From: a virus
DNA length: 64,000 bases
Reading direction: 5' to 3' (one strand)
Virus record (IMG/VR): IMGVR_UViG_3300023276_000007
Coordinates: 42,766 to 106,765 of that record
The notes below the pieces were generated by a model. That model was not told the origin of the DNA. It saw nothing but the letters and a program-made list of their open reading frames with translations, and did not search any database. This document shows, piece by piece, positions 2,951-36,560 of this stretch (the first letter of the stretch is position 1; each line of letters begins with the position of its first letter). The position numbers were made by a program, and so were the translations under genes.

Positions 2951-2965
2951 GGAGAGGTATTAACA

Positions 2966-3454: not shown

Positions 3455-3478
3455 GTTACCGAACTTAAGTTATTAACG

Positions 3479-3517
3479 ACCGGTAACCGCTCATGAGTGG
3501 TTACCGGTTTCTTTTTT
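3479..3517 (+). terminator. Rho-independent terminator after sheath-tube
   Basis: ACCGGTAACCGCTC-AT-GAGTGGTTACCGGT hairpin followed by TTCTTTTTT. Confidence 0.85.
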
Positions 3518-3531
3518 AAAGGATCAGCTAT

Positions 3532-5886
3532 ATGCCCAGTAAGCTTTACAATGACAATTTTAAAAATTCTACCGGTACTAAAGGCGGTCCTAAAGGATGT
3601 CGTGGTGAGTTCAAGCAAGGAATCATCACCAGAGCACTACAAGGTCAATTCTCTTATTCTGTAGAAACCGACAAAGGCGAGACTATCACATGTAAGTCTG
3701 CAGCTAGTATGGTTTCCAATATTGTAGGTGTGAAGGACTTAGCAACACTGTCGTCAGGAACTCCGGTAATATTATGGACTGACGCCCCTGGAGCACAGAA
3801 TGGTGTTATACTGTGTGCCCTACCTACCCATGCTAAGGGTAAACAAGAAATAACACCTAGACAGTTCTCAGCAGACCCCGAGTCTGGCACAGCTATGTGG
3901 AGTAGTCAGTACTACCAAGAGATGTTGAAAAATAGAGATTTCAAACAAAAGATATTCGCTAACAATGGAAGACCTTTTGATGTAAACCCAGGGGACTGGG
4001 GTAAGATAAACGATCACGGAGTCTTCCTAGGTATTATGGGAATGACTGCCACTATGCGAGGGTCGCAGCAATGTGCGATTGAAGTGCATACCCTCGACGA
4101 CCTATTAAGACTCAGAAGCGGCCAGTACCAGCATTTCTCTTCTTTCGGAGAGCAACACATCTATAATGATGGTGGTAATATATCTGTAGAGATATGCGGA
4201 TCTTCTAGGCAGCATGAAGTTTCTGGCAAGGACGACATCGGTGAAGAGGTTTTCGAAGAGTCGGACGATATTAGCAATGACTATAAAGATTTAAACATCA
4301 AACCCAAAGAGGCAGAGGCTACCCTAAAACGTCGTTTCCAGATGTTCTTCGGACACCTAGGATTGCTACAGATGTTTGTTGCCAACCCTGAAGAGGGTGA
4401 TGAGAAGTATTCAAGGAAAGCAAAGCATCAAGGACTTTTTCATCTTAACATCGCAGACAGCGGGCATCTAGGCGTTACCTCTGCAGCAGGTATGGCGTTT
4501 ACTCGTGACGATATCATCCCTATACCTAAGAAGCTTAAAGAACCTTGGGACCCGTCAGGCGACAAGACAGAAGACGGTGAGATCGGAGAAGAGAAGGAAC
4601 CTTATAAGATACCCCCAGCATTTAAGGGAGGTACTCATTTACTTGTAAGAGATATGACTGCATGGTCTAGAAAGAATAGTTACCAAAGATTTGACGAGCA
4701 AGAAAAGGATTGGTATGTACCCGAAGCAGATGACCTAGAAACTCCTAAGGATAAGTACGACACGTTATCCAATGGTAAGGAGTCTACAGAAGAGTTCCAG
4801 GATAAGAAAGAACTTAGAGCTGGTGTGTATATAAACCCAGACGGGTCTGTTACTATTATGGATGCAGCTGGAACACAGCTAGTCCTTGATGGTAAAGGCG
4901 GAATGCAGCTTGGTGGAGCAGGTGCTTTAACTTTAATGCCCGGAACTAACGTAAATATATTAGGCGGTGACGATGTTGTCATTAAAGCCAAGAATAGCGT
5001 AGACATCACAGCTACAGATAAGGATGTACGACTTAAGGCTGAGAAGAACCTACATAGTTTCTCTAATGGCGGAATACTACTAGAGTCAGCAGGAGAGCAG
5101 TCTGGCCATGGCTTTTCAGACGGAACTGACGGTGAGGCAGTTAATAGTTCTGGTATTGTCCTTAAGGCAGCAGAAAGCTCTATCTTTCTATGGGGGCAGG
5201 AAGTACTCTTGTCTGGTATTAGAGGTATTGGCATAGAAGCTGTGAAGGGTGCCGCTAAAGGTGTCCGTATTGTAGGTGACGTCGTGAGAGCTATTGGCGA
5301 CCGCATCCTAGCAGCTACTGGTGGAGCGTACTTACAGCTAACTGACACACAAGCAGCTCTAGCTGCATCTGGTAACGCTTTCTTAGGTGGTGAGTCTGGC
5401 GCAGCTATCGGTGACGGTGGCGAGTATTGGGTGCCACTAACTAAAGCAGGTGACGATGTTTCCACACCACAGCTAGTAGGAGCCAGTAGGCAAGAGAAGG
5501 CCTTCTCCTTTGATAGCAGGTCTTGGTTAAGTACTTTTGAAGAAGGACAACGTGATCCTATAAAGTTCACGTTCAGAAGCTCTGACGAGTATGCTACCAA
5601 TGACTTTGAACTATATCAACTTTCATGGCAGATACTTATAGATAAGAGCCCTATGGCACTGACAGATGCCGGCCTCACCTCTAGTGATTCCTGGCAAGAG
5701 ATTGAAGTTAATGGAACAATGCCATTTCCGGGTAAAGACAAAATTAACAGTAACGTATATATTGTCCTAACCAGCGGCGAAGAAAACGTCGATGAGAATG
5801 GAAAGATGAAGAACCGTGAGTCTATGACAAACGAACCACAGTTTCAGAAGACTTCCTTAAACGAATACAAAGTAACGAAAAGGTAG
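3532..5886 (+). CDS. Baseplate central spike, gp5/VgrG-like
   Basis: N-terminal OB-fold-like region and a beta-helix-like stretch (GVYINPDGSVTIMDAAGTQLVLDGKGGMQL…VVIKAKNSVDITATDKDVRLKAEKN); lies in the tail cluster. Confidence 0.6.
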   Translation: MPSKLYNDNFKNSTGTKGGPKGCRGEFKQGIITRALQGQFSYSVETDKGETITCKSAASMVSNIVGVKDLATLSSGTPVILWTDAPGAQNGVILCALPTHAKGKQEITPRQFSADPESGTAMWSSQYYQEMLKNRDFKQKIFANNGRPFDVNPGDWGKINDHGVFLGIMGMTATMRGSQQCAIEVHTLDDLLRLRSGQYQHFSSFGEQHIYNDGGNISVEICGSSRQHEVSGKDDIGEEVFEESDDISNDYKDLNIKPKEAEATLKRRFQMFFGHLGLLQMFVANPEEGDEKYSRKAKHQGLFHLNIADSGHLGVTSAAGMAFTRDDIIPIPKKLKEPWDPSGDKTEDGEIGEEKEPYKIPPAFKGGTHLLVRDMTAWSRKNSYQRFDEQEKDWYVPEADDLETPKDKYDTLSNGKESTEEFQDKKELRAGVYINPDGSVTIMDAAGTQLVLDGKGGMQLGGAGALTLMPGTNVNILGGDDVVIKAKNSVDITATDKDVRLKAEKNLHSFSNGGILLESAGEQSGHGFSDGTDGEAVNSSGIVLKAAESSIFLWGQEVLLSGIRGIGIEAVKGAAKGVRIVGDVVRAIGDRILAATGGAYLQLTDTQAALAASGNAFLGGESGAAIGDGGEYWVPLTKAGDDVSTPQLVGASRQEKAFSFDSRSWLSTFEEGQRDPIKFTFRSSDEYATNDFELYQLSWQILIDKSPMALTDAGLTSSDSWQEIEVNGTMPFPGKDKINSNVYIVLTSGEENVDENGKMKNRESMTNEPQFQKTSLNEYKVTKR

Positions 5887-5892
5887 ACCATT

Positions 5893-6639
5893 ATGTCAGA
5901 CAGTGTAAAAGATAAGATTAGCAAGAAGCTAGGTGACGGCGAAAGCCTCGGTAGTGGAGATTTTGCAGAATTCTCTCAGCCTAAGAAAAAAGGCGACGCA
6001 GAACTAAGTAGCTCAGTACCTGTAGTAGACAGTGCTAAAGACGACCCCATCATGGGCGCAGGATCAGATGAAGCTGCACCGACTAACGCCGCAAGGTTGA
6101 ACTTACATAAGTCTGGTGCCGATTTAGGTATTACTATAAACTATGACGAGGTAGAGATTACAGAAGACGATCGTGACGAGTTTCTAAACTGCCTTATAGA
6201 TAACAAACGATTCACCAGAGAGTTTACCATATTTGGTGGAAAAGTTACCGGCACCTTAAGAAGCAGAACCTCTGACGAAAGTAGAGCACTTATCTACGAA
6301 TCTCAAAGAAGAGTTACTATGGGAGAGATCCTATCCGACTCAGACTATGCAGCTGTTTTCAGAAGAGCTACTATGAGGTTTCAGATACAGCGGTTAAACG
6401 CTACAGAGTACCCAGAGGCTAAAGGGCCTTTCTTGGCACAAGCAACTTTTAAGTCGTTCATGTTGGATGACAAAGCAGCCGAAGCACCTAAGTGGTATGA
6501 AGAAGCAGAAACCGCTTGGCAAGGTATGCAAACAGGACTTGAAGCAGCTATCTTCGCAGAGATACTGAAATTTGAGTATAAATATTGGACAATGGTAGAG
6601 AATGCTAATAATCAGGATTTTTGGAATCCCGAAGGTTAA
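5893..6639 (+). CDS. Tail assembly chaperone (gpG-like)
   Basis: Upstream of the putative tape measure; ends just after the slippery site G GAT TTT. Confidence 0.6.
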   Translation: MSDSVKDKISKKLGDGESLGSGDFAEFSQPKKKGDAELSSSVPVVDSAKDDPIMGAGSDEAAPTNAARLNLHKSGADLGITINYDEVEITEDDRDEFLNCLIDNKRFTREFTIFGGKVTGTLRSRTSDESRALIYESQRRVTMGEILSDSDYAAVFRRATMRFQIQRLNATEYPEAKGPFLAQATFKSFMLDDKAAEAPKWYEEAETAWQGMQTGLEAAIFAEILKFEYKYWTMVENANNQDFWNPEG

Positions 6640-6654
6640 ACCTCGGCCTTCGGG
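6615..6654 (+). promoter_or_regulatory. Programmed -1 ribosomal frameshift signal
   Basis: Heptamer G GAT TTT (6615-6621), 6-nt spacer, then an 8-bp stem CCCGAAGG (6628-6635) / CCTTCGGG (6647-6654). The -1 frame is open from 6612 to 7025. Confidence 0.7.
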
Positions 6655-7025
6655 CTCGCCTTCGGGGAATACCTACTAGAGATTCCGAAAAACATAGACA
6701 CTCGGGAAAGTTCTACGCTACGGTATGTGAGGTTATCGAGAGCGACATCCTTCGTGAAGTACGAGGACAGAAGTACACGGGTTTGATGGCAGGAGCCACT
6801 CACCCGACTATAGATTATGATAAAGCTATGGGTGTAGCTATAGATGCCTACTATAGCTTGTTAGAAACGATTCCTTACTTAACAGGAGGAGCCACTAAAG
6901 AGGACATGAAGAAGATGGAAAGAGAAAGAGCCGTCAAGGACTACCACGAGAACGTGGCCTTCGATAAGAGAGACAACTCTACCGAACCTCCACCTGTTTA
7001 TGACCATAAGAAGGTTGGAGAATAA
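6621..7025 (+). CDS. Tail assembly chaperone frameshift extension (gpT-like part of a G-T fusion)
   Basis: In the -1 frame relative to 5893..6639, has only a TTG start inside the slippery site, and ends 2 nt before the tape measure. Confidence 0.6.
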   Translation: MESRRLNLGLRARLRGIPTRDSEKHRHSGKFYATVCEVIESDILREVRGQKYTGLMAGATHPTIDYDKAMGVAIDAYYSLLETIPYLTGGATKEDMKKMERERAVKDYHENVAFDKRDNSTEPPPVYDHKKVGE

Positions 7026-7027
7026 CT

Positions 7028-9421
7028 GTGGCGCAATCCCCATATAACACCCAGTATACCCCTAACGCCGTAAGCTCTAACTGGATGGTTAACACAGCCT
7101 ACCAGATGGGCACCAACATGATGGGTATGTCTCAGTCTCCTGGCTTTGTTATGGGGCAGCGCCCTTCCGATACTATGTTTGTAGTTAACGGAGGAAGCCA
7201 ACGCAATCAAAAGGCCCATGAAGACCTCGTGGGTCATATCAACATAATAAATTCGCTACGTAATACAGGAGGAGAGGCTGGAAACATCGCCAGTACTGCA
7301 AGTGGTTACGATAACATGGCTAACTCTTACTTAAGCCAATTTGATTTTGTAAAGCAGGCGACTGGGGGTAACCTCGACGAATTCTCTCGTAGGATGATTG
7401 GAGGAGCTACCAGCATTGCCGGTGGTGGTGACTTAACTAATGCACCTGGTGCTAATAGTTGGCAGAAGCAGATGGCATTCCACCAGCAGCATGTACAGCG
7501 GGCTAAAAGTTTTGGCAAGAGTATACTAGACTCAGCATACGTAGGTGGTGACGCTACAAAGGTTAACAAGAGCTTCACTAGAGGGTTTAAGATAGAAGAG
7601 GTCGCTGATGTAGTTAGCCAACTTGGTTACGAAGGCGGGGTAAGCTGGACAAACCGAGACGGCAGCAAAAGATCAGACGAGCAGAATAAAGACGTAGTAA
7701 GTCAGCGACTAGGTAAACTTGCGGCAGCTAGAAACGTCTTTGGAGAGGGTGACGTTAATTCCCTACAGCAGCAGACACAGCAACTACTCGGCTCCAGCCT
7801 AGGGTCTAACGATGATGCCTCCGGTAAAATACTACAGCAGATTTCTGCAGAGGCTAGAGTTCTTAATAAAGATGTTAAGAACATGGTCAAGTCTAGAGAG
7901 GTCATTAAGAACACTCTAGTATCGTTAAATAAAGCTAGAGACTCTCGCGGTGTCAACTTAACCTACGATGGTACAGGGTCTATTAGTGGTGATATGGAAG
8001 TCACTGCAAATGCTATTGGGTCGTTAGTAGATCATGCAACAGCAGGTCTTCCAGGAAAGACGCAAGCAGCTATGTCACGTAACATGACTAGAACGCTTAT
8101 TAAAGACGTCGACTCTGACGCAGGGCAGTTAGCTAAGCTAATGCAAGCCGGTATGATGTCCGGAGAAGTTAGTAAAGAGGACTATAACATATTCCAACAG
8201 GCCCAACGCTCCGGTAACACCCGAGGAGCTTCCGACATAGCCAGACGTACTATTAAGGACGTTGATAAGATAATGTCAGATAAAGTCCTTTTCGAGAATA
8301 CTATAGGGTGGATGAATGAAGGGGCGATTAAGAATCAGTTTGGAGGTAACGTTGCCGAATTCCAAAAAGCCAACGCAGGATACTCAACACAACGTGTTCG
8401 TAATATTGCGTTAGGAGGTTCCGCACAACAAGCCACTAGGATGCAGGAGATGGGCACCAAACGACGGCTCAATGATATGCGTAAAATTCGCAGAATTACT
8501 GGTGTCGAAGAAGATGAGTATACCGACGAGAATAAAATAGCTGACTATAAAAAAGATTTAGCTATAGGCGCTGGGAACCAAGCCGAGAATGAGAAGACTA
8601 TACAACGCCAGAAACATCAAAGAGGCGACCTAACAGATGACCAACTAAAAGAAAAGCTTGCCGAGATAGATAGTACTCTTGCAGACGACTTAGTCTCTAT
8701 CAAAGGGGTTTCCGGAGATAGCGTCTCAGACGTCAGAGGTGCTATTAGGTCCGGAAAGGTGGGTATATCTGAAGCACGGGCCGACAACATTTCCGATGTA
8801 GCAGACGCTGGGTTCACCAAGCGTCGGGCTAGGAAATACTTTAAAAAGGTTCAAAAGTCTGGCAAGCTAGGCGCCTATACTCAGCTAGACAGTCTTGTAG
8901 CCCGCAAAGCTATATCAAAGGACCAGATGGCCGAGATAATGGATATAGACGATAAAGAAGAACGTCAACAAAAGATCGAGGGTATTATAGGCGAACACTT
9001 CGGTGGAGACACTCGACAAGAGGATATATTTAGAAAACAGACATCGGCAGAAGCAGGCCGCATGACTAACATGTATCTAAGAGACGTAACCCTAAGTGGG
9101 GACCGTGGCTTTATAGATCATAAAACATACGCCAGCAGGAATAAACTTTCCAACGCAGTAGGTAAACAGGCGGGCAAGAGTAAAGACATATCAGACGCCG
9201 CTACTGACGATATGAAAGCAAGCGAGAGTCTTGCTGGAGATAAGAATAATGCAGAAAAGATTCTTAGTGGTATACAAGAACTAGCCGCCGCAGTAACTGA
9301 CGGCCAAAAAGCCAACCTCGACACCTACGGCGAAGGCGGTGTCCTGAAGGTTAAAATAATCAACCCTGAAGAAGTTAAGCCATCCGACCCACCTATGGTC
9401 GAAAGTGGCAGCGGCGGGTAA
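7028..9421 (+). CDS. Probable tape measure protein
   Basis: 797 aa, helical A/G/Q/K-rich composition, directly after the frameshifted chaperone pair. Confidence 0.55.
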   Translation: MAQSPYNTQYTPNAVSSNWMVNTAYQMGTNMMGMSQSPGFVMGQRPSDTMFVVNGGSQRNQKAHEDLVGHINIINSLRNTGGEAGNIASTASGYDNMANSYLSQFDFVKQATGGNLDEFSRRMIGGATSIAGGGDLTNAPGANSWQKQMAFHQQHVQRAKSFGKSILDSAYVGGDATKVNKSFTRGFKIEEVADVVSQLGYEGGVSWTNRDGSKRSDEQNKDVVSQRLGKLAAARNVFGEGDVNSLQQQTQQLLGSSLGSNDDASGKILQQISAEARVLNKDVKNMVKSREVIKNTLVSLNKARDSRGVNLTYDGTGSISGDMEVTANAIGSLVDHATAGLPGKTQAAMSRNMTRTLIKDVDSDAGQLAKLMQAGMMSGEVSKEDYNIFQQAQRSGNTRGASDIARRTIKDVDKIMSDKVLFENTIGWMNEGAIKNQFGGNVAEFQKANAGYSTQRVRNIALGGSAQQATRMQEMGTKRRLNDMRKIRRITGVEEDEYTDENKIADYKKDLAIGAGNQAENEKTIQRQKHQRGDLTDDQLKEKLAEIDSTLADDLVSIKGVSGDSVSDVRGAIRSGKVGISEARADNISDVADAGFTKRRARKYFKKVQKSGKLGAYTQLDSLVARKAISKDQMAEIMDIDDKEERQQKIEGIIGEHFGGDTRQEDIFRKQTSAEAGRMTNMYLRDVTLSGDRGFIDHKTYASRNKLSNAVGKQAGKSKDISDAATDDMKASESLAGDKNNAEKILSGIQELAAAVTDGQKANLDTYGEGGVLKVKIINPEEVKPSDPPMVESGSGG

Positions 9422-13917: not shown

Positions 13918-15582
13918 ATGGCAATAGATAGAAATTTAAGCGACGTCAATCAAGATGACTTCGATGCTGCAGAAGCTAAACTCATCGCAGCTATAAGGGA
14001 ATATAACCCCTCAGTAGACTTAAGAGTAGGTACTGCCCTGCGTGATTTATTAGTGAGACAATCGTCTCTACTTAACGCTTATAATGAGAAACTTAACGAA
14101 GACCTGCGTAACAGTCAGTCTTTACTAGCGGTTAGTGAGAACCCAGACTTAGCAGATGATGATGTAATTGCTGGAATACTTTCTAACATCAATGTAGTCC
14201 GACGAGATGGATCACCTGCGTCTGGGTTGGTAATTGTTACAGTACCTAACGAAGAGCGGTTTATTGTTCCAGAGGGATACACCTTTACTACTTCAGGCGG
14301 GGTTGCGTATGCTACTACTCAAGCCTACAGAGCTAGACCCTCTGCAGTATTTACTGCCGGACTAGACGAGTTATTAATAACAGCACACACTACTGACGCA
14401 CTGTTGGGGAGCTTCTATGTTATAATACCTGTAGTCGCCACCACCACAGGTTCTAACACTAATATAAGTTCTGGCATAGCCATGACAGTGACAGAAGCTC
14501 TCGTAGTAGGGCTTACCAGTCAAGAGTCATATAACAACTTCACAGGCGGAGCTGATCAAGAGTCTATTGATGAACTCTTGGCCCGAGTACCGACAGCCCT
14601 AGGGCAGAAGTCCATGGAGTCGCAACAGTCGATAGGCTCAGTTCTTCAAGGACAATTCCCGTCTGTCAGGGAGGTATCTGCAGTAGGCTTTGGTTTCGAA
14701 GCCCAACTTAGAGACAAACATAATATCTTCGGATCTGCTATGGGTGGCAAGGTTGATATCTATGTAAGACCATCTACAGCTCCAGAGACTCTCACAATAC
14801 TAGCTACGGCTACTAAAGTTTCAGATGGTGTTTATAGCGTAACACTTACACCAGATGTTGCAGCAGGTATACAATTTATAAGATCTGTAACGTCACCAGA
14901 TGTTATTACCCCGGCAACCCCTTTAACAGACCAGCTACCTGTAATCGGTTCTTACCCATTTACATTCAGCAGAGGTTCTGCCGGTATGGATAGCAGCTAC
15001 CACGACTTTGACGTTAATAACCTTTCTGTAGAAACGGCATATAGCGCCTATCAGACTGTGACTCTAGTCGTTACCGATATACCAGCCATAGTCGAAGACG
15101 GTCAGTCAGTATGGCCAGATACCTTGACTCTTAAGGTCGAAGCATACGTTGCTAAGCTTATTAGAGAGATACAGTCCTATGTAGACAGTGAAGTAGTTAG
15201 AAACTTGAAAGCCGATCATGTAGTACGTTCTTTCGTACCAGTGATGGTATCGTTAACAGCTACACTCAATGAATCCCCAGGAGAGACTCTGGACACGACT
15301 GCGATAAGACAGGCGGTTGTGGACTACATTAATTCTAAAACATTTGGAGAGATTGTCACACCATCACAGATTGATAGTGTGTTACACACCTTTCCTATCG
15401 TTACCGTTAAAAGCCTAGAGCTGTCCGCCGTGACTGTAGACGCTGCTAATAACATCATACCTATTGCAGGGCCTACTCTAGATATTAGTGATGTATCGGT
15501 TCCGGAATATTTGTTAAACGGTACGACTGCTATGTTCAGCGCGGACATACGGGATATATTCATTACCACAACGGAGTCTTAA
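13918..15582 (+). CDS. Baseplate J-like wedge protein
   Basis: GTALRDLL, RRDGSPASGLV and FTGGADQESIDELLAR motifs typical of Baseplate_J. Confidence 0.85.
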   Translation: MAIDRNLSDVNQDDFDAAEAKLIAAIREYNPSVDLRVGTALRDLLVRQSSLLNAYNEKLNEDLRNSQSLLAVSENPDLADDDVIAGILSNINVVRRDGSPASGLVIVTVPNEERFIVPEGYTFTTSGGVAYATTQAYRARPSAVFTAGLDELLITAHTTDALLGSFYVIIPVVATTTGSNTNISSGIAMTVTEALVVGLTSQESYNNFTGGADQESIDELLARVPTALGQKSMESQQSIGSVLQGQFPSVREVSAVGFGFEAQLRDKHNIFGSAMGGKVDIYVRPSTAPETLTILATATKVSDGVYSVTLTPDVAAGIQFIRSVTSPDVITPATPLTDQLPVIGSYPFTFSRGSAGMDSSYHDFDVNNLSVETAYSAYQTVTLVVTDIPAIVEDGQSVWPDTLTLKVEAYVAKLIREIQSYVDSEVVRNLKADHVVRSFVPVMVSLTATLNESPGETLDTTAIRQAVVDYINSKTFGEIVTPSQIDSVLHTFPIVTVKSLELSAVTVDAANNIIPIAGPTLDISDVSVPEYLLNGTTAMFSADIRDIFITTTES

Positions 15583-28262: not shown

Positions 28263-30425
28263 ATGGCACGACAACCTTTTGAGTATGGCCCCGATTGTGA
28301 TGGCCCTGATGTAGATATTAACATAATACCTACATCTTTCCCATTGTGTGATGAAGTCGTCTTTGAAGATCCTGACTTACTACCCACCTGCACCGACTTT
28401 GAGACTGTAGATTTTATAGTTCCCCCAGTCTGCCCATGTTTCCCTGAACGTATGGGTCTTACTGATAACTCGAATGCAAGTATTGCTTGTGGCGGGCCTC
28501 TACCTTCAATAACCTTTGATGCAGCTATCGTTAACGTAGCACCGGACGACTGCTGTGCTCCAGAGTTTAAGCTTGATATACAGTTAGATATACAAGTACC
28601 TTGTGTAGGTGCTGTCGGAGGCTGTGCCGCTATAGTTGGTCAAGTTGACATCAAAATTGATGAAGGTCCGCTTGGATGGTTCTTTGATTGGGAAAAATGT
28701 ATCGATGACCAAGGTAACATTATAAACGACCCCTGCTGTATTCGGCTAGTGGGTGAGATGTTTATACCTTGTATAGACGGTATAACATTTAAAGTTGAAC
28801 ATAATATCCAAGAGACCGGTGCAGTAGATATCCCTACCATCGAGGAGTTTACTATAGAAGCGTCTGATGACGTTCCATGTGAATACGATGTAGTATTCGA
28901 CATGCTAGTTCCTTTACCAGAGGACCCTACAATACCTATAAGCCCTACAGACCCAAATATACCACCCGGCCAGAACTGCTGTAATGGTGTAGGTTATTGT
29001 CCCGACGAAGGTACGTTTAGCGACCTAGGAAAAATGAAAACAGAGACTATTTCGGTCGTCACCAATATTACCTGTGATCTGGAAGGTAATTTAACTGTGG
29101 AGAGGACAGAACTTGAGTATGTTTGCGGGCTCCTTAAAGATTTCAGGATAGCTGGGAACGACGCGATTCCCTGCGCTGGGGCTCAGTCGTACAATGAGGA
29201 TTGCTGTCCAAGCACTACGACGACAGATCCGGACTACCCACCACCAACTACAGAGCCAGGTGAGGGCCCCTATGGCCCGTATATCCCGCCAGAAACCTGT
29301 CAGTGTCGGTGTGACAAATATTACGTGTGTGACAAAGAGACAGGGAAGACAATCCCAGACCTCTATGTTGAGGTTTACGACCTGTCCGGCGATGGTAGCT
29401 GTGCTTACCGTATTGTAGATGGTGACAGTGTAGACGAGAATAACAACGCGGTAATTATGCACGAAGGCCTAGGATGTCCAGACCCTGACGAAAATATATC
29501 TAACGGTTCTACTACGTGGGTTCTAGCGTGTGAACCCTGTAGTGATTGGCCGGATAACAGTACCACGACAACTACTACTACCACGACAACTACTACTACA
29601 CCGCCTATCATCATCGATGAGAAGTACTATTGCGTACAGATCGGTACCGGTGCTCCGAAGCAATGCGTTATCGGTGCAGCACTAGTTCCAGGATCACCAA
29701 TCTCAGCAGGACCTTTCGATAGTGCGTCTGAATGTGCAGCAAACTGTAATACAAACAGCTACGAGTATGAAGAGTGCCCTGCCTCGACAACAACCACAAC
29801 CACGACGACGACAACCACAACCACGACAACCACGACAACCGCGACAACCGCACCTCCTATGGCGGCGGCTTGTGGTACTGACAATGGTCACCCAACTATG
29901 CTAGTCACTATGACTTGGACAGGTGGCCCAGCTACTCGTGATTACATGGGATGTAATGACTGGGAGTCAGGCCAGCAGCGCGTCTTAAATGCCGATACCT
30001 ATGACCGGTACCAGAACACCATGGGTGGTTGCCTAGGTGAAGAAGGTGAATATTGGAGAAAGGGTGCAGACAGTGACGCATTTAACATGTCAGGTTTCGT
30101 AGATTTCTTCGGAGGATTTTTCTGGCAACTTAAGAATGAATATAACGGCGTTGGAGAATTGAACCATGGTACAGCAGCTATTGATGGTTACGTTTATGAT
30201 AGCCTCTCTGCGTTCTCACCAGGGCCAGGCGCGTTTTACCCTTTCGGTAACTCATTCCTAGACGGCCCTTTTGGTGGAAATACCGCCTTCCCTCCGCCGT
30301 CCACAGGCATGAGCGGGTGTTTAACCGGGGCATACCTCGGAGATCTTAAATCTGCACAGCTCAGCGGTAGCGTGACGTTCGCTAACGGTGTTACGGTGAC
30401 GTGGGAACAAGGAACAGGATGGTAA
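28263..30425 (+). CDS. Cys/Pro-rich fibre protein with two poly-Thr tracts and a C-terminal tip domain
   Basis: Dozens of Cys; Thr13 (29562-29600) and Thr18 (29787-29840); tip domain at 29859-30422. Confidence 0.7.
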   Translation: MARQPFEYGPDCDGPDVDINIIPTSFPLCDEVVFEDPDLLPTCTDFETVDFIVPPVCPCFPERMGLTDNSNASIACGGPLPSITFDAAIVNVAPDDCCAPEFKLDIQLDIQVPCVGAVGGCAAIVGQVDIKIDEGPLGWFFDWEKCIDDQGNIINDPCCIRLVGEMFIPCIDGITFKVEHNIQETGAVDIPTIEEFTIEASDDVPCEYDVVFDMLVPLPEDPTIPISPTDPNIPPGQNCCNGVGYCPDEGTFSDLGKMKTETISVVTNITCDLEGNLTVERTELEYVCGLLKDFRIAGNDAIPCAGAQSYNEDCCPSTTTTDPDYPPPTTEPGEGPYGPYIPPETCQCRCDKYYVCDKETGKTIPDLYVEVYDLSGDGSCAYRIVDGDSVDENNNAVIMHEGLGCPDPDENISNGSTTWVLACEPCSDWPDNSTTTTTTTTTTTTTPPIIIDEKYYCVQIGTGAPKQCVIGAALVPGSPISAGPFDSASECAANCNTNSYEYEECPASTTTTTTTTTTTTTTTTTTATTAPPMAAACGTDNGHPTMLVTMTWTGGPATRDYMGCNDWESGQQRVLNADTYDRYQNTMGGCLGEEGEYWRKGADSDAFNMSGFVDFFGGFFWQLKNEYNGVGELNHGTAAIDGYVYDSLSAFSPGPGAFYPFGNSFLDGPFGGNTAFPPPSTGMSGCLTGAYLGDLKSAQLSGSVTFANGVTVTWEQGTGW
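29562..29840 (+). repeat. Poly-Thr codon tracts (ACN)n
   Basis: ACCACGACAACTACTACT x2 at 29562-29597 and a mixed ACA/ACC/ACG run at 29787-29840. Confidence 0.9.
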
Positions 30426-30429
30426 ACTT

Positions 30430-31446
30430 ATGAGTAGCTTATTTTTTAAAGACGACCACGGTCAATTTATCAAACACGGCAACAAATGCTACACGAAGGT
30501 AGGTGCCTCTCAGGTTATGCCCGACGTTACAACAGCCCCGGATGGTGGGTCTTCTTTTGTTGATTGCGATGATTGCAACTCTGGTACTACGACCACTACT
30601 ACGACCACTACTACGACAGCCTTATCCGGGTTATCATTTGGGCAAACCAACACTCCTGCAGAAGGCGACCCAGAAAGTACAGTAGTTGGCGACTTAACAC
30701 CTACCGGCGGTACAGGCCCGTTCACGTATGCAATGAAAGCAGGGGCAGGTGATGGTGACAACGGTAGTTATAAGATTGTAGGATCACAGTTACAGTTAAG
30801 CGCGGCACCTAGTATCTCGGAACCGACCGACAGTATACGAGTAGAAGTTACCGATAGCCTAATGGCCACCTTTGACGACACCTTCTCAGTTGATGTATAC
30901 CCAACAACAGGATCTATGACCGTTGAACTAGCAGAAGGTTCACCGCTATACGACGACGCCTCTCCTGGTGAGGACGTAGGTGAAGTATCTGCAGGAACTA
31001 ACTTAGGCGACATAAACGCTGCCAATGGTAATCCATCCACACGACTAGTTTACGTATCAGGACCGGAAGTCTCCTTCTTAGGTAAGGACTGGAGTCCTAA
31101 CGATTACGGCGAGCTCTATACAGACGCAGTTCCGTATTCAGTGCCAGACCAGCACGAGTGGGGTAGTGATACACCTGCCAACCCTGGTTTGTATATGCAC
31201 GACTATCACGAAATGCCTTATGTAGGTGATTATGTGTCTCGGGTATCTTTCCGTATAGATGCAAGTAACCAATTAGACATTACTAACCAGACAACAGGTG
31301 GTACTATTGATAATAGCGTCGGCGTGACCTCTGGTAACGATCCAAACTTATTAGTACCAGATGGAACCATCGACACAGCCGCTTTTCAGGAAGTGACTTT
31401 TGCTAACGGACAAACCTGGAAGTGGCAACAGGAATCTGGATGGTAA
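30430..31446 (+). CDS. Poly-Thr + cadherin-like + half-cadherin + tip-domain protein
   Basis: Thr11 (30586-30618), cadherin-like VGDL…FTY…GAGDGDN…SIRVEVTD, orphan N-terminal cadherin strands at 30901-30993, tip ends VTFANGQTWKW. Confidence 0.7.
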   Translation: MSSLFFKDDHGQFIKHGNKCYTKVGASQVMPDVTTAPDGGSSFVDCDDCNSGTTTTTTTTTTTALSGLSFGQTNTPAEGDPESTVVGDLTPTGGTGPFTYAMKAGAGDGDNGSYKIVGSQLQLSAAPSISEPTDSIRVEVTDSLMATFDDTFSVDVYPTTGSMTVELAEGSPLYDDASPGEDVGEVSAGTNLGDINAANGNPSTRLVYVSGPEVSFLGKDWSPNDYGELYTDAVPYSVPDQHEWGSDTPANPGLYMHDYHEMPYVGDYVSRVSFRIDASNQLDITNQTTGGTIDNSVGVTSGNDPNLLVPDGTIDTAAFQEVTFANGQTWKWQQESGW

Positions 31447-31488
31447 GTATGTATAACTTAAAAACAATAAAACTATAGAGGAATTAAC

Positions 31489-32076
31489 ATGGCCATTACA
31501 TATACAATAGAAGCAGACCCTACCGCAGGCGGAAACGATGCGAATAACGCAGACTTTGACATAGAGAATCCAGACGTACTGGAGCTGTCCTCTAATGCAC
31601 CTTTAGCAGGCGGTAGTTATAAAGTTACAGTAAAAGCTGTTGATGGCGTATCTGGTGAGTTTGGCTATGGCTTCTTTACGGTAGTAATCAACCCTAGAAT
31701 CACAGCCCTAACACTGAATCAGACTAACGTACCTATCGTTGGCGATTCTGCAGGTACTCTTGTTGGTGACCTTCAAGTTACTGGCGGTACTGCTCCGTTC
31801 ACGTTTGCTTTAGTAGCAGGTGCAGGAGATGGAGATAACGGTAACTATCAAGTAAACGTTGCTGATATTGAAGTAAAGGCTGCGGCTGTCTTGACAGACC
31901 CAACTGACGCAATAAGAGTAGAAGTTACTGATGCGGCGGGTGACACGTTTGAGCAAGCACTCACAGTCAACGTACAACCAGTAACAGGAACTCTGACAGT
32001 TATATTGACTCTAGGATCTCCACTATTCGACGACGACAGTCCTACAACAGACGTCGGTACAGTAAGCGCGTCTTAA
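31489..32076 (+). CDS. Circularly split cadherin-like protein (candidate polymer subunit)
   Basis: Begins with the C-terminal portion of a cadherin domain, contains one full domain, and ends with the N-terminal strands of a domain; AT-rich leader and GAGGA SD. Confidence 0.7.
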   Translation: MAITYTIEADPTAGGNDANNADFDIENPDVLELSSNAPLAGGSYKVTVKAVDGVSGEFGYGFFTVVINPRITALTLNQTNVPIVGDSAGTLVGDLQVTGGTAPFTFALVAGAGDGDNGNYQVNVADIEVKAAAVLTDPTDAIRVEVTDAAGDTFEQALTVNVQPVTGTLTVILTLGSPLFDDDSPTTDVGTVSAS

Positions 32077-32101
32077 CCTAGCGCAGACAAAGGAAGCGTA
32101 A

Positions 32102-33946
32102 ATGGCTATAACATATACAATAGCAGCAGATCCAACGGCGTCGGGAAACGACGCCAATAACTTGGACTTTGAAATAGAGAACCCAGACGTACTGGAGTTA
32201 TCTGCTAACGCCCCTTTGACTGCCGCCACCTATAAGGTAACGGTAAAAGCCGTTGATGGTGTATCTGGTGAATTTGGCTACGGCTTCTTTGACGTAGTAA
32301 TCAACGCGGCTGTCACAGCGCTATCCCTTAATCAAACAAACACCCCTCAGGCGGGTGACCCAGTAGACACTTTAGTAGGTGACCTCCAAGTTACAGGGGG
32401 AACTGCTCCTTACACGTTTGCTTTAGTAGCAGGTGCTGGTGATGGTGACAACACACATTACCAAGTTGATGGTTCTAATATAGAGTTAAGTGCCTCTGGC
32501 GGCACAACAGCCGGAACTGATGCAATAAGAGTAGAAGTTACCGACGATAAAGGCTATACGTTTGAACAATCTTTAACTGTTAATATAGCCGTTGCTCCGA
32601 CCACGACCACTACGGCCGCCGCTACTACGGCACCTCCAGGACCACTAGCCTGTGGAACCCCTAATAGCGACCCTACTATGATCGTTACTATGTCCTGGAC
32701 GGATGTTGATGTAACCAAGAGTTACCTAGGGTGTACCTGGACTAATGGGGAAACTAAAGAATTATATACCACCTTCTATCAGGCAGTGGTTGGATCGCTG
32801 GAAACGTGGCGTAGAGATGCAGGACCAGACCCACAACTGTTTCATTTACACGGTAATGAATATTATCCGGGGACAGCCCCCTCCCTCTACGAAACCATAT
32901 TGGGAGGAGCTAGTATCGGCGTAGTATATCATACTAATTATAGACTTCAGATCTTTAAGGATTCAACTTTTACAGGATCCTCTGGCAATGTAGGAGTAAG
33001 TGCGTCCTCCCCGACAGCGGGTGCTCTAGTTACGGGTGCCCCTATAGCCCCAAGTCATAAAAGTGGTTCGGTCACTTTCACGAATGGCATCACCGTAAGT
33101 TGGGGGGAAGGTAACTTATGGCCACCACCGATTACGGATATAACCCTTAACCAGACTAATACACCGACAGAGGGTGACCCAGTAGCTACTTTGATTGGTG
33201 ACTTAACACCGACAGGTGGTACTGCATCATTTACGTATGCACTGGTAGCTGGTACCGGAGACACTGATAACTCTCATTACCAAATAACCGGCGCTAACCT
33301 AGAGTTAAGTGCCTCTGGTGGCTCAACATCCTTAACAGACTCAGTACGTATAGAAGTGACTGATGCGACTGGACGTAAATTCGAGAAGGCCTTTACTGTG
33401 ACAGTCGACCCCGTACCTATGGCAAGCCCTTGTTTACCAGACCTCGGACATCCGTCTATGCTAGTAACACTGTCCTGGACAGGAGGACCAGCCACTAGGA
33501 CATTCTTAGGGTGTACTGATTGGGCACCAGGACAACAGCGCGTAGTGAACGCAACTGGCTATAACTTAACTTACACGCCGACCACCGCAGTATCTGGCGT
33601 TAATTCTGCTGGATGGAATGCTGCCGGCGGTGGCGACGGCGACCTTATTAGATTCGGAGGGACTACCCTTCTAAGCTCATTCTCTAGTAGACAAGCTGGT
33701 AGCGTACGGTTTAACGGTATAGAGGGTGTCATCGGTGCCCCTGCCGACCCAACCTTCTCAATCTTTCGAGTTGACTTTAAATCCTTTACTGGCTACAACG
33801 GGAGCTTCAACAACTTAGTTACGGCAGGGTTCAGTCCTACTAAAACTAATGTCGGCGTAGGGGTACCTCTAGACGCCAGTAGAAAGAGCGGCTCAGTTAC
33901 CGATGTAAACGGTATTACGTATAGCTGGCAACCTAACGGCTGGTAG
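32102..33946 (+). CDS. Cadherin-like protein with Thr-rich linker and two tip domains
   Basis: First ~160 aa are paralogous to 31489..32076; two full cadherin-like domains; tip domains at ~32642-33121 and 33419-33943. Confidence 0.7.
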   Translation: MAITYTIAADPTASGNDANNLDFEIENPDVLELSANAPLTAATYKVTVKAVDGVSGEFGYGFFDVVINAAVTALSLNQTNTPQAGDPVDTLVGDLQVTGGTAPYTFALVAGAGDGDNTHYQVDGSNIELSASGGTTAGTDAIRVEVTDDKGYTFEQSLTVNIAVAPTTTTTAAATTAPPGPLACGTPNSDPTMIVTMSWTDVDVTKSYLGCTWTNGETKELYTTFYQAVVGSLETWRRDAGPDPQLFHLHGNEYYPGTAPSLYETILGGASIGVVYHTNYRLQIFKDSTFTGSSGNVGVSASSPTAGALVTGAPIAPSHKSGSVTFTNGITVSWGEGNLWPPPITDITLNQTNTPTEGDPVATLIGDLTPTGGTASFTYALVAGTGDTDNSHYQITGANLELSASGGSTSLTDSVRIEVTDATGRKFEKAFTVTVDPVPMASPCLPDLGHPSMLVTLSWTGGPATRTFLGCTDWAPGQQRVVNATGYNLTYTPTTAVSGVNSAGWNAAGGGDGDLIRFGGTTLLSSFSSRQAGSVRFNGIEGVIGAPADPTFSIFRVDFKSFTGYNGSFNNLVTAGFSPTKTNVGVGVPLDASRKSGSVTDVNGITYSWQPNGW

Positions 33947-33948
33947 TT

Positions 33949-34446
33949 ATGGATAATCACGGAGTGACGATACATCTCTACGGGTACCCATGCTCCGGTA
34001 AAACTACGATAGGTGGTTCGTTAGCTAAAGCATTAGGTAGAACTATAATCCTAGATGGCGACTATGTAAGAAAACATATAAGCAAAGACTTAGGATTTTC
34101 TAAGAAGGACCGTATAGAGAACGCCCGCAGAATAGGTAGCTATACCTCCCTATTAAACGACCAAGGGTTTAATGCGGTAGTATGTACAGTAGCTCCTCAT
34201 AAGAAGTGTCGAAGACTAATACGCGACCACGTCAAGTACTACACCTCTGTGTTTATAGACACACCTTTAAAGGATTGTATAATGCGTGACACTAAAGGTA
34301 TGTACAAGAAGGCTGTGTCCGGAGAGATACAAAATTTTACAGGAGTACATTCTTTTATAGATAGAGGTACACCCGACATCGTAGTAACACCTGGGCCAGT
34401 ACATCTTCAAGTCCAGTACATAATTTCACAATTGGCTGGAAATTAA
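33949..34446 (+). CDS. cysC: Adenylyl-sulfate (APS) kinase
   Basis: P-loop GYPCSGKTT, LDGDYVR, LGFSKKDRIENARRI, RDTKGMYKKA..GEIQNFTG. Confidence 0.93.
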   Translation: MDNHGVTIHLYGYPCSGKTTIGGSLAKALGRTIILDGDYVRKHISKDLGFSKKDRIENARRIGSYTSLLNDQGFNAVVCTVAPHKKCRRLIRDHVKYYTSVFIDTPLKDCIMRDTKGMYKKAVSGEIQNFTGVHSFIDRGTPDIVVTPGPVHLQVQYIISQLAGN

Positions 34447-34500
34447 GTACTAACTGTTTATACTAACTACACTAATACGAAAACAAAAAAGGTACTAACT

Positions 34501-35625
34501 ATGTTGAATATCGTAAGCGGTTGTCCTCGCTCTGGGACTAGTCTATTAATGAACGTCATGCTCTCCATCTTTGGTGAAAAAAACATTATGGGTGGTGGCA
34601 AGCCCAACCTTGACTTTGACTACGACGCTGAGCTTGCTAAGCTAAGCAACAGAGAACAGGCTATGGTTTGGTCTCAAGAGAGAGCCTTAGCTGCAAAAGG
34701 CCAGACGAGAGAAAAGAGGTTGGAGATACAAGCGAAAACTATGGATCTTAACCCCAACGGGTTCTTCGAGTGTCAGTACAGCGTTCAAGGTATTTCCTAT
34801 AACTACCCAGACCGCGAGCAACTTAAAAAGTATGTTAGCGACGGCGGGGATAAACTATGCATGAAAATAGTCTCCAGTGGTCTGCGGGTTAGTGACCCAA
34901 GGTTTATTGGGAAGGTAGTCTACCTTATAAGACATCCTAGGTCTGTAGCTAAAAGCCAAGAAAGGCTACGTACGCAGCTTGATATGCTTTTTGAATCAAA
35001 CCCTGGTTATGAGGATATGAAGCAAAAGATGGTTATACATTCCCCGCGTATGTATATCAACTCTACAAGAGCAGCTTCCGAGTTTTTCCTAGAGAATCCA
35101 GACATACCTGTTCATCCATTACACTACGACGAGCTCATTGCTACTCCTGAGAAAGTTATTAAAGACTTAGCGGGATTCTTGGGTAAGAACAAAAAAACCG
35201 TATGGTCTAAGGCTAAAGGTATCGTAGATCCTAAGTTAAAGAGAAGTTACCCTGAAGATATCGAAAGTGACCTATGGGAAGACGCAGAAGAGGTTTACCG
35301 ACTTTTTGATAAGCAAGACTACCAAGGCGTTGTCGACTACCTCAAGCCTATGCACAGAAACACTAATCAAGCAAACTCTAATTGGGTATGTGCACGTAAC
35401 GGTATTCTGACTAACAAGGCACAGTGTACAAACTGCATCAATAATGAAACCGTAAGAACCAACTTTAAAAAAGCAGCTAACGAGAAGAAGATTGATTGGC
35501 GTAATGAGCCTTGCCTCTTTGAGTGCGGTATGAACCTCTCCTTAGAAGACGATAAGGTACTTACCTTAGAAGAAAGCACCAAGAATAACTTCTGGAGAGC
35601 AGGTGCTGAAAGGCTGGTTAAATGA
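34501..35625 (+). CDS. PAPS-dependent sulfotransferase with Cys-rich C-terminal extension
   Basis: 5'-PSB IVSGCPRSGTSLLM, NPNGFFE, 3'-PB LIRHPRSVAKSQ, HYDELIATPEKVIKDLAGFLG. Confidence 0.88.
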   Translation: MLNIVSGCPRSGTSLLMNVMLSIFGEKNIMGGGKPNLDFDYDAELAKLSNREQAMVWSQERALAAKGQTREKRLEIQAKTMDLNPNGFFECQYSVQGISYNYPDREQLKKYVSDGGDKLCMKIVSSGLRVSDPRFIGKVVYLIRHPRSVAKSQERLRTQLDMLFESNPGYEDMKQKMVIHSPRMYINSTRAASEFFLENPDIPVHPLHYDELIATPEKVIKDLAGFLGKNKKTVWSKAKGIVDPKLKRSYPEDIESDLWEDAEEVYRLFDKQDYQGVVDYLKPMHRNTNQANSNWVCARNGILTNKAQCTNCINNETVRTNFKKAANEKKIDWRNEPCLFECGMNLSLEDDKVLTLEESTKNNFWRAGAERLVK

Positions 35626-36560
35626 ACAAACTAACCTGTATTCTAACCTTCTTAAATGAAGGTATAGAAGTCTTTAGGACGGTTAAAAGCATACGGGACA
35701 GTGTAGGGGATACTGTAGATATCTTATTGGTAGACGACTCCAGTACAGATGGGGTGCCCTATAAAGTTGTTGCCAACAAATTTAACTGTGACTATGTGAA
35801 GTCGGATACTCGACAAGGAGTGGCTGGCGCGAGAGATCTTGGAGTGTCTTTAGCTAAGACGCCATACTGTATACTCTTCGATGCCCACATGAGGTTCGAC
35901 AAAAGAAGTAATTGGGCAGAACGAGTTGTAGAAGAAATAGAAAATAACGACAGGCGTATTTACTGCACAACTTGTGTATCCTTGTGGTATCCGTTTATAG
36001 AGCAGTCCCAAAGTGTTACCCACCAAAGAAGCACAGGAGCTTACCTAGCGACATCTTTCAAGGATAGCCACACTAGCCTTGCGGCTAAGTGGATACCGCT
36101 CAAACTAACAGGCGTAGAACCAGTTCCTTTAGTTCTTGGGGCGACCTATGCCTTCTCTGTAGAGTACTACCGTGAGTTGCGAGGTTTAGCCGGCTTGAAG
36201 TATTATGGCAGTGACGAACCTTGGATATCCCTAAAGTCTTGGGCGATAGGTGATGGCTGCGCAGTTATAACAGATGTTAACATAGGCCACCTATTCCGAT
36301 CCAAGCACCCGTATCCAGCGTATGGACTAGACGCCCTCTATAATAAACTTTTTATGGCGGCTGTAGTTTTTCCTAAGAAGACTAAGTGGTTAGAGGACCT
36401 AATGAGGTTGGGCGGCCCAAAGGTAAGTAAGATGTTTAAAGAAAATGAAACTCAGTTTAGGGAAACAAGGTCTTGGTTTGCAGAAGTGGAGAAGCCCGGC
36501 TGGCGGGAGACATTCTCTCAATTGAATGGAGAATTTACTGAACAGGTAATTACGTTATGA
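35622..36560 (+). CDS. GT-A glycosyltransferase (GT2/GT27-like) resembling polypeptide GalNAc-transferases
   Basis: TFLNEG, RTVKSI, LLVDDSS, GVAGAR, DxH motif FDAH, YGSDEPWISLKSW, IGHLFRSKHPY. Confidence 0.85.
   Translation: MNKLTCILTFLNEGIEVFRTVKSIRDSVGDTVDILLVDDSSTDGVPYKVVANKFNCDYVKSDTRQGVAGARDLGVSLAKTPYCILFDAHMRFDKRSNWAERVVEEIENNDRRIYCTTCVSLWYPFIEQSQSVTHQRSTGAYLATSFKDSHTSLAAKWIPLKLTGVEPVPLVLGATYAFSVEYYRELRGLAGLKYYGSDEPWISLKSWAIGDGCAVITDVNIGHLFRSKHPYPAYGLDALYNKLFMAAVVFPKKTKWLEDLMRLGGPKVSKMFKENETQFRETRSWFAEVEKPGWRETFSQLNGEFTEQVITL

What the first reader, a model, noticed from the sequence alone, without database searches (positions are those of the whole stretch)
30430..33946. Cadherin domains split across gene boundaries: possible strand-complementation polymer (initiator - subunit - tip)
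Seen: an intact domain here reads [ITALTLNQTNVPIVGDSAGTLVGDLQVTGG]+[TAPFTFALVAGAGDGDNGNYQV…IRVEVTD…LTVNV]. Gene 31489 starts with only the second part (MAITYTIEADPTAGGNDANNADFDI…VTVKAVD…FTVVIN) and ends with only the first part (TGTLTVILTLGSPLFDDDSPTTDVGTVSAS*). Gene 30430 carries an orphan first part (30901-30993), and gene 32102 has an orphan second part but no donor end. The 31489/32102 spacer is 25 nt (out of frame) with its own SD, so this is not readthrough. Inference: each C-terminal pair of strands completes the next subunit's half-domain, giving 30430-(31489)n-32102, a pilus-like fibre of variable length. This is analogous to donor-strand exchange in chaperone-usher and type V pili but built from a cadherin fold.
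Basis: partly seen in the sequence, partly recalled or inferred. Interest (0 to 1): 0.85.

Follow-up and report, generated by a model that had tools for sequence, protein, structure and literature searches.

The report
Split cadherin joints linking phage fibre proteins
Three neighbouring fibre genes of a large uncultured phage are cut inside a cadherin-type domain, so that one protein carries the first two strands and the next carries the rest; the proteins probably snap together in gene order, but no binding has been tested.

Summary
Genes 31489 and 32102 both start at the third strand of a cadherin-type domain. Gene 31489 ends, and gene 30430 carries internally, a ~31-residue two-strand piece that sits where the missing strands belong.

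The cut is old and maintained:
- The same short and long proteins recur in three further phage lineages at 39-62% identity.
- In one of these (locus L086) a 177-aa protein ends in the hairpin, and the next gene begins with the half-domain. The stop, Shine-Dalgarno, TAA and ATG junction is laid out the same way.
- The half-domain is the best conserved segment (dN/dS 0.09).
- No fused form turned up in 1.84 billion representative proteins.
- Donors and acceptors are equal in number in both records with context: 2 and 2 here, 1 and 1 in L086.

Best reading (0.6): hairpin-completion joints tie a base (30430), an adaptor (31489) and a tip (32102) into one fibre. The solved precedent is Tuc2009, where the BppU hairpin completes an Ig-like domain of BppA. 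Self-polymerisation of 31489 is possible but unsupported (about 0.2).

The complex predictor was closed, so binding is inferred only. This scan had already noted split-Ig fibre joints in many other phage genomes.

The parts
30430..31446 (+). Gene 30430, proposed base protein (338 aa): N-terminal Cys module, poly-Thr, full cadherin-type domain, internal hairpin, divergent tip domain X'
   Evidence: ORF. Domain HMM 10-96 maps to residues 74-157. AF2 cadherin domain pLDDT 75-89.
30430..30585 (+). N-terminal module (residues 1-52, ends ...F.DCDDC), probable attachment module
   Evidence: The only copy in the 106.8-kb record. The same module starts three L086 proteins, at 8896, 9821 and 12686.
30619..30903 (+). 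Complete cadherin-type domain of 30430 (residues 64-158)
30904..30996 (+). Internal orphan hairpin (residues 159-189), donor 1
   Evidence: Collinear without gaps with the hairpin of 31489, 61% identity. AF2 pLDDT 27-36, not packed on anything confidently. Conserved P..G[TS]...G..L[FYW]D motif.
31489..32076 (+). Gene 31489, proposed adaptor (195 aa): half-domain, full domain, C-terminal hairpin
31489..31692 (+). N-terminal half-domain (residues 1-68, strands C to G), acceptor 1
   Evidence: HMM positions 42-87. AF2 pLDDT 45-64 while the full domain in the same alignment reaches about 90. 85% identical to the 32102 copy, dN/dS 0.09.
31693..31977 (+). Complete cadherin-type domain of 31489 (residues 69-163)
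   Evidence: HMM 2-96, i-E 5.5e-21. pLDDT 80-91. Foldseek top hits are all cadherins.
31978..32073 (+). C-terminal hairpin (residues 164-195), donor 2
   Evidence: Conserved in P0002, P0004 and P0005, which carry a Cys pair there.
32077..32101 (+). 25-nt spacer with AAAGGAA Shine-Dalgarno and an in-frame TAA directly before the ATG of 32102
   Evidence: The same layout (stop, 29 nt, AAAGGAA, TAA, ATG GC) is seen at L086 10352-10386.
32102..33946 (+). Gene 32102, proposed tip protein (614 aa): half-domain, cadherin domain, tip domain X, cadherin domain, tip domain X; no hairpin
32102..32305 (+). N-terminal half-domain of 32102 (residues 1-68), acceptor 2
   Evidence: HMM positions 44-85. DNA repeat D2, 75% identity to 31489-31788.

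Best explanation
The three genes encode parts of one fibre, held together by two non-covalent joints. In each joint a two-strand beta-hairpin from one protein supplies strands A and B that are missing from the N-terminal cadherin-type half-domain of another protein.

The hairpins lie in 30430 (internal) and 31489 (C-terminal). The half-domains start 31489 and 32102. The most likely wiring follows gene order:
- 30430 is the base, carrying an N-terminal attachment module.
- 31489 is a two-domain adaptor with both a socket and a plug.
- 32102 is the tip, carrying the unnamed X domains.

Shown here: the out-of-phase cut, its conservation, selection on both pieces, and equal numbers of donors and acceptors. 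Inferred: that the pieces bind, and in which order.
For: 1. The half-domain maps to strands C-G in 9 of 9 family proteins and aligns in register with bacterial tandem cadherin arrays.
2. The hairpin occupies the A-B position, adds alignment score over shuffles, and has invariant P, G, G, L and D positions across four lineages.
3. Donor and acceptor tile the domain model without overlap: the hairpin ends near HMM position 28-34 and the half-domain starts near 34.
4. The split is kept in relatives. Short 200-221 aa proteins with the same architecture appear to share contigs with long half-domain proteins; this co-occurrence rests only on matching contig lengths.
5. In L086 a 177-aa protein (module, domain, hairpin, stop) lies 29 nt upstream of P0068 (half-domain, domain, X-like). 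Neither protein has a partner element in cis.
6. Selection: half-domain dN/dS 0.09 at dS about 1. The half-domain is 60-79% identical to relatives in the other lineages, against 46-53% for the complete domain. The hairpin is 39-61% identical.
7. Donors equal acceptors: 2 and 2 in this record, 1 and 1 in L086.
8. AF2 with one alignment gives the complete domain pLDDT about 90 and the half-domain 45-64.
9. No fused form exists among close relatives.
10. A solved precedent exists: the C-terminal hairpin of Tuc2009 BppU completes a beta-sheet of BppA domain 2, and the composite resembles a titin Ig domain (PMC4742702, read).
Against: - No binding or complex prediction could be run.
- The hairpin alone is not significantly similar to strands A-B.
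- The hairpin of 30430 is internal and is followed by another domain, an unusual position for a donor. Its AF2 model is uninformative because the X' domain is also at low confidence.
- Both records are incomplete (57% and 35%), so other donors or acceptors may exist.
- Gene adjacency in two of the lineages is inferred only from equal contig lengths.
- The alignments used for folding were shallow (7-8 rows).
Confidence: 0.6

Rival explanations
1. Self-polymerising shaft. 31489 adds head to tail to itself, its hairpin filling the half-domain of the next copy. This gives 30430-(31489)n-32102 of variable length, like a pilus rod.
For: 31489 carries both elements. Its half-domain is 85% identical to that of 32102 and identical in the predicted E strand. 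Only residue 64 differs in strand G, so its own hairpin probably cannot tell the two apart.
Against: L086 has a base and a tip but no protein carrying both elements. Donor and acceptor counts match exactly in both records, as expected for a defined chain. No sign of separate or higher expression: no promoter-like or terminator-like site stands out around 31489. Nothing was tested.
Confidence: 0.2
2. 31489 closes on itself, in cis or as a reciprocal dimer. Only 30430 and 32102 pair directly, so 31489 is not part of the chain.
For: In the AF2 monomer the hairpin of 31489 forms two strands at pLDDT 56-67. The hairpin of 30430, which has no half-domain in its chain, stays at 27-36. Foldseek superpositions on extended two-domain cadherins have rmsd of 10-11 A, which is compatible with a bent model.
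Against: Model coordinates could not be inspected. Monomer predictors are known to self-complement donor-strand subunits (my own knowledge). The two linkers are only 2-4 residues long, which makes a U-turn tight (inference). The adaptor is conserved in three lineages next to a tip gene.
Confidence: 0.1
3. Relic of out-of-phase recombination or duplication within a cadherin repeat array. On this view the partial pieces are linkers or disordered ends with no pairing function.
For: [Half-domain + domain] and [domain + hairpin] are duplicated blocks. Repeat arrays recombine easily. Neither partial piece folds confidently in AF2.
Against: The half-domain is the most conserved segment (dN/dS 0.09). 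The breakpoint and the junction layout are kept across lineages at about 50% identity. The partial pieces always come in matching numbers.
Confidence: 0.08
4. Translational recoding (a +1 shift or a bypass) fuses 31489 to 32102 into one protein. Alternatively, the split is an assembly error.
For: The two pieces would make one domain if joined. The phage encodes a protein matching the PHROG baseplate-wedge family, a T4-type tail part, and T4 gene 60 is the known case of bypassing (my own knowledge).
Against: Two stops must be passed: TAA at 32074 and the in-frame TAA at 32099 directly before the ATG. There is no matching take-off and landing codon pair (read). The Shine-Dalgarno and M1-A2 are invariant in all family members. 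Independent assemblies give the same 195-aa protein, and L086 has the same junction.
Confidence: 0.02

Closest known systems
Lactococcus phage Tuc2009 baseplate tripod, BppU-BppA joint (crystal structure, mBio 2016, PMC4742702)
   Same: A short C-terminal beta-hairpin (about 25 residues) of one phage adhesion-device protein completes a beta-sheet of an incomplete Ig-like sandwich in a second protein. The result is a composite domain. It joins an accessory carbohydrate-binding protein to the device.
   Different: - No sequence relation: no PDB chain matches 31489 at E <= 1.
- In Tuc2009 the incomplete domain is C-terminal and titin-like. Here it is N-terminal and cadherin-type, and the cut is a clean fission of a repeat at the B-C loop.
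- Here there are two joints in series, and one protein carries both plug and socket.
- Here nothing has been solved.
Donor-strand complementation and exchange in chaperone-usher pili (Fim, Pap, Caf1) and strand exchange in type V pili; named from established knowledge
   Same: Subunits with an incomplete Ig-like fold are completed by a neighbour's strand. This gives a base/adaptor/tip order, and a subunit with both donor and acceptor could polymerise.
   Different: - In pili one strand (an N-terminal extension) replaces the missing C-terminal strand G. Here a two-strand hairpin supplies the N-terminal strands A and B.
- No chaperone, usher or protease is evident.
- Assembly would be cytoplasmic, in a phage-infected cell.
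- The fold is cadherin-type.
Bacterial tandem cadherin-repeat adhesins (for example P0009, P0025 and loci L006-L085)
   Same: The repeat family is homologous (28-40% identity). 31489 aligns collinearly with an internal stretch of two repeats.
   Different: The bacterial proteins are single ORFs of 600-6000 aa with in-phase domains. The phage proteins are excerpts cut out of phase and encoded as separate genes.

Membership tests
Cadherin-type repeat (cadherin superfamily beta-sandwich) | Sequence homology to cadherin repeats | tested here: met
   Pfam gives no hit on the phage proteins directly. Relatives P0009 and P0010 carry PF00028. A profile of the phage proteins plus bacterial relatives hits cadherins and protocadherins down to E 5e-52.
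Cadherin-type repeat (cadherin superfamily beta-sandwich) | Seven-strand Greek-key sandwich fold | tested here: met
   The central domain of the AF2 model has pLDDT 80-91. All top Foldseek PDB matches are cadherins, probability 1.00.
Cadherin-type repeat (cadherin superfamily beta-sandwich) | Calcium-binding inter-domain linker motifs (DxNDN and the like) | not tested
   The linkers read ..VVINPR.., ..VNVQPV.., and by eye lack DxNDN. No formal test was made.
Hairpin-completion joint of the Tuc2009 BppU-BppA kind | One protein ends in a short beta-hairpin extension | tested here: met
   31489 residues 164-195: AF2 strands at 171-175 and 190-194. The L086 177-aa protein and P0002, P0004 and P0005 end in the same element. 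In 30430 it is internal.
Hairpin-completion joint of the Tuc2009 BppU-BppA kind | The partner has an Ig-like sandwich lacking those strands | tested here: met
   The half-domain maps to HMM positions about 36-91 of 97 in 9 of 9 proteins. It has low pLDDT beside a confident full domain.
Hairpin-completion joint of the Tuc2009 BppU-BppA kind | Physical complex with a composite domain | not testable with these tools
Hairpin-completion joint of the Tuc2009 BppU-BppA kind | Sequence homology to BppU or BppA | tested here: not met
   No PDB chain matches at E <= 1. The resemblance is in mechanism, not ancestry.
Chaperone-usher donor-strand pili | Subunit lacks C-terminal strand G and is completed by a single N-terminal donor strand | tested here: not met
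   Here strands A and B are missing, and the donor is a C-terminal or internal two-strand hairpin.
Chaperone-usher donor-strand pili | Dedicated periplasmic chaperone and outer-membrane usher | not tested
   The neighbours that were scanned are APS kinase, sulfotransferase, GT2 and unknowns. The full window was not scanned for these families.

The most novel reading that the evidence does not exclude
31489 is a true polymerising subunit. Its hairpin fills the half-domain of another 31489, so the phage builds a pilus-like cadherin rod of variable length without chaperone or usher. The rod is started by 30430 and capped by the receptor-binding tip 32102. If the conserved SYEYEEC strand of 28263 also completes the N-terminal module of 30430, the whole locus would be one self-assembling branched fibre.
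Probability: 0.2. Interest if true: 0.8.

Novelty: new variant of a known kind. Interest (0 to 1): 0.6.

Why it matters
If the joints are real, they show how phages can build long, modular adhesion fibres from small genes. The tip (32102-like) can be exchanged or duplicated without touching the base, because every tip carries the same conserved socket. An adaptor with both plug and socket can lengthen the fibre.

The case would extend the single solved example (Tuc2009 BppU-BppA) in three ways:
- to a different fold;
- to serial joints;
- to uncultured phages whose proteins tested here (31489 and the baseplate wedge) have no match in the 50,697-record phage collection.

A naturally split cadherin domain would also be a compact, genetically encoded protein-protein connector that could be tested directly. 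The locus sits beside sulfation and glycosylation genes in both lineages, so the fibre is probably a modified, mucin-like adhesin.

Tried and rejected
No pair or homo-oligomer was predicted.
I repeated the search with the clean alignment A8 and rely only on that.

Searches that found nothing:
- tblastn against the 50,697 records of the phage collection found nothing for 31489 or the baseplate wedge.
- Viral and metagenome pattern scans with 31489, A1, P0005, P0002 and P0163 found no relatives.
- The homologue search for 30430 returned only its own cluster.

Tests that were negative or inconclusive:
- The hairpin alone against the domain HMM, and against its own A-B strands by BLASTP, was not significant.
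- The half-domain against this phage's own full domain by BLASTP gave E 0.4. The homology shows only through bacterial repeats.
- The AF2 model of 30430 was inconclusive for the hairpin, because the following domain is also at low confidence.
- No promoter or terminator signal separates the genes.

Considered and rejected:
- A shifted reading of the domain phase, with 31489 as two whole domains. Linkers and poly-Thr tracts flank domains in the standard phase in 30430 and 32102, and solved cadherins start at strand A.

Literature searches for donor-strand or split-domain joints in phage fibres gave nothing beyond Tuc2009.
Full report
WHAT IS THERE

The window is bases 42766-106765 of a 106.8-kb IMG/VR virus record judged 57% complete. 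One protein matches the PHROG baseplate-wedge family. Neither 31489 nor the wedge protein has a relative in the 50,697-record phage collection.

Four consecutive + strand genes form a fibre-like module.

| Gene | Length | Order of parts |
|---|---|---|
| 28263 | 720 aa | Cys-rich region, poly-Thr, tip domain X |
| 30430 | 338 aa | N-terminal Cys module, poly-Thr, cadherin-type domain, ~31-residue hairpin, divergent X' |
| 31489 | 195 aa | half-domain, full domain, hairpin |
| 32102 | 614 aa | half-domain, full domain, X, full domain, X |

Directly downstream lie an APS kinase, a sulfotransferase and a GT2 glycosyltransferase.

CHECK OF THE OBSERVATION

- After the TAA of 31489 come 25 nt containing AAAGGAA.
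- An in-frame TAA stands immediately before the ATG of 32102, which is in a different frame.
- The frame of 31489 is open for only six codons upstream, without a start codon.
- Both proteins therefore truly begin at M-A-I-T-Y-T.

I built a 97-position HMM from 1687 repeats of distant bacterial tandem cadherin proteins.
- Full domains of the phage proteins map to positions 2-96.
- The N-terminal ~60 residues of 31489, 32102 and seven relatives all map to about 36-91, that is strands C to G.
- BLASTP against one such bacterial protein aligns 31489 from residue 2-4 in register with the last two thirds of a repeat and then the next whole repeat (36% identity, E 4e-18).
- In the exhaustive HMMER search, many best stretches run from residue 12-14 to 193-195 of 31489 inside giant tandem arrays.
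- 31489 is therefore a two-repeat excerpt cut out of phase.

The hairpin is the weaker half of the observation.
- Alone it scores about 1 bit against the HMM, no better than shuffles. It gives no BLASTP alignment to the phage's own A-B strands.
- Appended to the preceding domain it raises alignment scores to 146 bacterial proteins by 2.76 bits on average, against 0.70 +/- 0.82 for 20 shuffles.
- 67% of alignments run through it, against 7% for shuffles.
- AF2 gives it two strands separated by a 14-residue loop, as for A and B of the full domain.
- In two lineages it ends in T-T-T-P-A-P, which mirrors the T-G-G-T-A-P B-C loop of full domains.

Hairpin and half-domain tile the domain model without overlap.

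The name 'cadherin' rests on three results:
- Foldseek's top PDB hits are all cadherins.
- A profile hits cadherins and protocadherins down to E 5e-52.
- Relatives carry PF00028.

Pfam itself does not call the phage proteins.

IS THE SPLIT MAINTAINED?

Yes. Evidence from relatives:
- Short proteins of 200-221 aa with the same three parts occur at 47-62% identity (P0002, P0004, P0005, P0160, P0162).
- Long proteins starting with the same half-domain also occur (P0003, P0161, P0163, P0008, P0068).

One relative could be read, locus L086 from a 90.8-kb IMG/VR record.
- A 177-aa protein consists of the same N-terminal Cys module as 30430, a full domain and the hairpin, then a stop.
- 29 nt later P0068 begins with the half-domain.
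- The junction has the same layout as here: stop, AAAGGAA, TAA, ATG GC.
- That record holds exactly one hairpin and one half-domain. This record holds two and two.

Selection:

| Comparison | Segment | Result |
|---|---|---|
| 31489 vs 32102 | half-domain | 85% identical, dN/dS 0.09 at dS about 1 |
| 31489 vs 32102 | full domain | 67% identical, dN/dS 0.17 |
| 31489 vs relatives in other lineages | half-domain | 60-79% identical |
| 31489 vs relatives in other lineages | full domain | 46-53% identical |
| All between-lineage pairs | hairpin | 39-61% identical |
| 30430 vs 31489 | [domain + hairpin] | collinear over 125 residues without a gap; hairpin 61% identical |

Five hairpins from four lineages share invariant P, G, G, L and D positions.

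No fused form appears among close relatives in the word-index search for longer proteins or among 1.84 billion representatives. Bacterial genomes hold only contiguous arrays at 28-40% identity.

STRUCTURE PREDICTION

- 31489, with a 7-row alignment: full domain at pLDDT 80-91, half-domain at 45-64, hairpin at 56-67, pTM 0.56.
- 30430, with 8 rows: cadherin domain at 75-89, hairpin at 27-36. The X' domain is equally low, so nothing can be said about packing.

The half-domain is thus not predicted as a confident unit, although its alignment is as deep as that of the full domain. I could not inspect coordinates.

HOW IT MOST LIKELY WORKS

In the cadherin fold, strand B pairs with A and E, and the second half of strand A (A') pairs with G (established knowledge). 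A chain starting at strand C lacks one edge of each sheet and part of the core. The hairpin is placed, sized and conserved to supply those strands.

In L086 neither partner has the other element in its own chain. The same holds here for 30430 and 32102. If the pieces function, at least one joint must therefore form between chains.

The simplest wiring follows gene order: base 30430, adaptor 31489, tip 32102. L086 shows the two-part form without an adaptor.

A solved precedent exists. In the Tuc2009 tripod, the 25-residue C-terminal hairpin of BppU completes a beta-sheet of BppA domain 2, and the composite resembles a titin Ig domain (PMC4742702).

POLYMER OR DEFINED CHAIN?

31489 has both elements, and the two half-domains are nearly identical in the strands that should touch the hairpin. 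Self-association therefore cannot be excluded.

Against a polymer being the point of the system:
- L086 has no such subunit.
- Donor and acceptor counts are equal in both records.
- No expression signal sets 31489 apart.

Given that joints form at all, I rate the defined chain about twice as likely as a polymer.

COMPARISON AND NOVELTY

This is not a member of the chaperone-usher or type V pilus systems: different strands, a two-strand donor, and no assembly machinery seen. It is not homologous to BppU or BppA.

It works like the BppU-BppA joint, with four differences:
- a cadherin-type fold;
- an N-terminal acceptor;
- a clean fission at the B-C loop;
- two joints in series.

Literature searches found no description of such chained joints in phage fibres.

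This scan has, however, already noted split-Ig or split-FN3 fibre joints in many other phage genomes. Those notes gave me the Tuc2009 lead, which I then checked in the paper itself.

VERDICT

- It is a new variant of a known kind.
- Binding is untested.

Noticed in passing
window 30430-30585; L086 8896-9060, 9821-9985, 12686-12850: An N-terminal ~50-residue module (..D.D.G..I.H...CY ... F.DC[DE][DE]C) starts 30430 and three different L086 fibre proteins of 307, 177 and 1145 aa. It is probably a shared attachment module for several fibres. It occurs only once in the 106.8-kb record.
   Followed up: partly
window ~29740-29765 (28263, ..NSYEYEEC..); L086 within 2217-8894 (..LSYEYEEC..): The short SYEYEEC strand lies just before the last Thr-rich linker and tip domain of the upstream giant protein. 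It is conserved in both lineages, directly before the genes that start with the Cys module. Untested.
   Followed up: no
window 29865-30425, 30997-31446, 32650-33115, 33430-33946: Four copies of an unnamed ~150-aa tip domain (starts ..P[ST]M.VT.., ends ..SGSVTF.NG.T..W..G.GW) with no Pfam or PHROG match. AF2 gives it pLDDT around 30. It is also present in P0161, P0163, P0008 and the L086 proteins.
   Followed up: partly
window 33949-36560; L086 11440-12570 and 16136-17026: APS kinase (PF01583, E 6e-38), sulfotransferase and a GT2 glycosyltransferase follow the fibre genes. By eye, two L086 ORFs look like homologues of the window's sulfotransferase (same N-terminal motif as window 34501) and are interleaved with its fibre genes, so the link between the fibres and sulfation appears conserved.
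   Followed up: partly
L086 2217-8894: A 2225-aa protein with several hundred residues of near-perfect (Thr-Ser)n repeat, ending in the same tip domain as 28263.
   Followed up: no
P0002, P0004, P0005, P0160, P0162 (C-terminal 40 residues): In two lineages the hairpin carries a Cys on each strand (..VAC..GSP....DYC..), absent here. This probably forms a disulfide staple across the donor hairpin, and implies an oxidising environment for the mature fibre.
   Followed up: no
window 13918-15582: The protein matching the PHROG baseplate-wedge family (phrog_6, E 6e-25) has no tblastn match at 1e-5 in the 50,697-record phage collection.
   Followed up: partly
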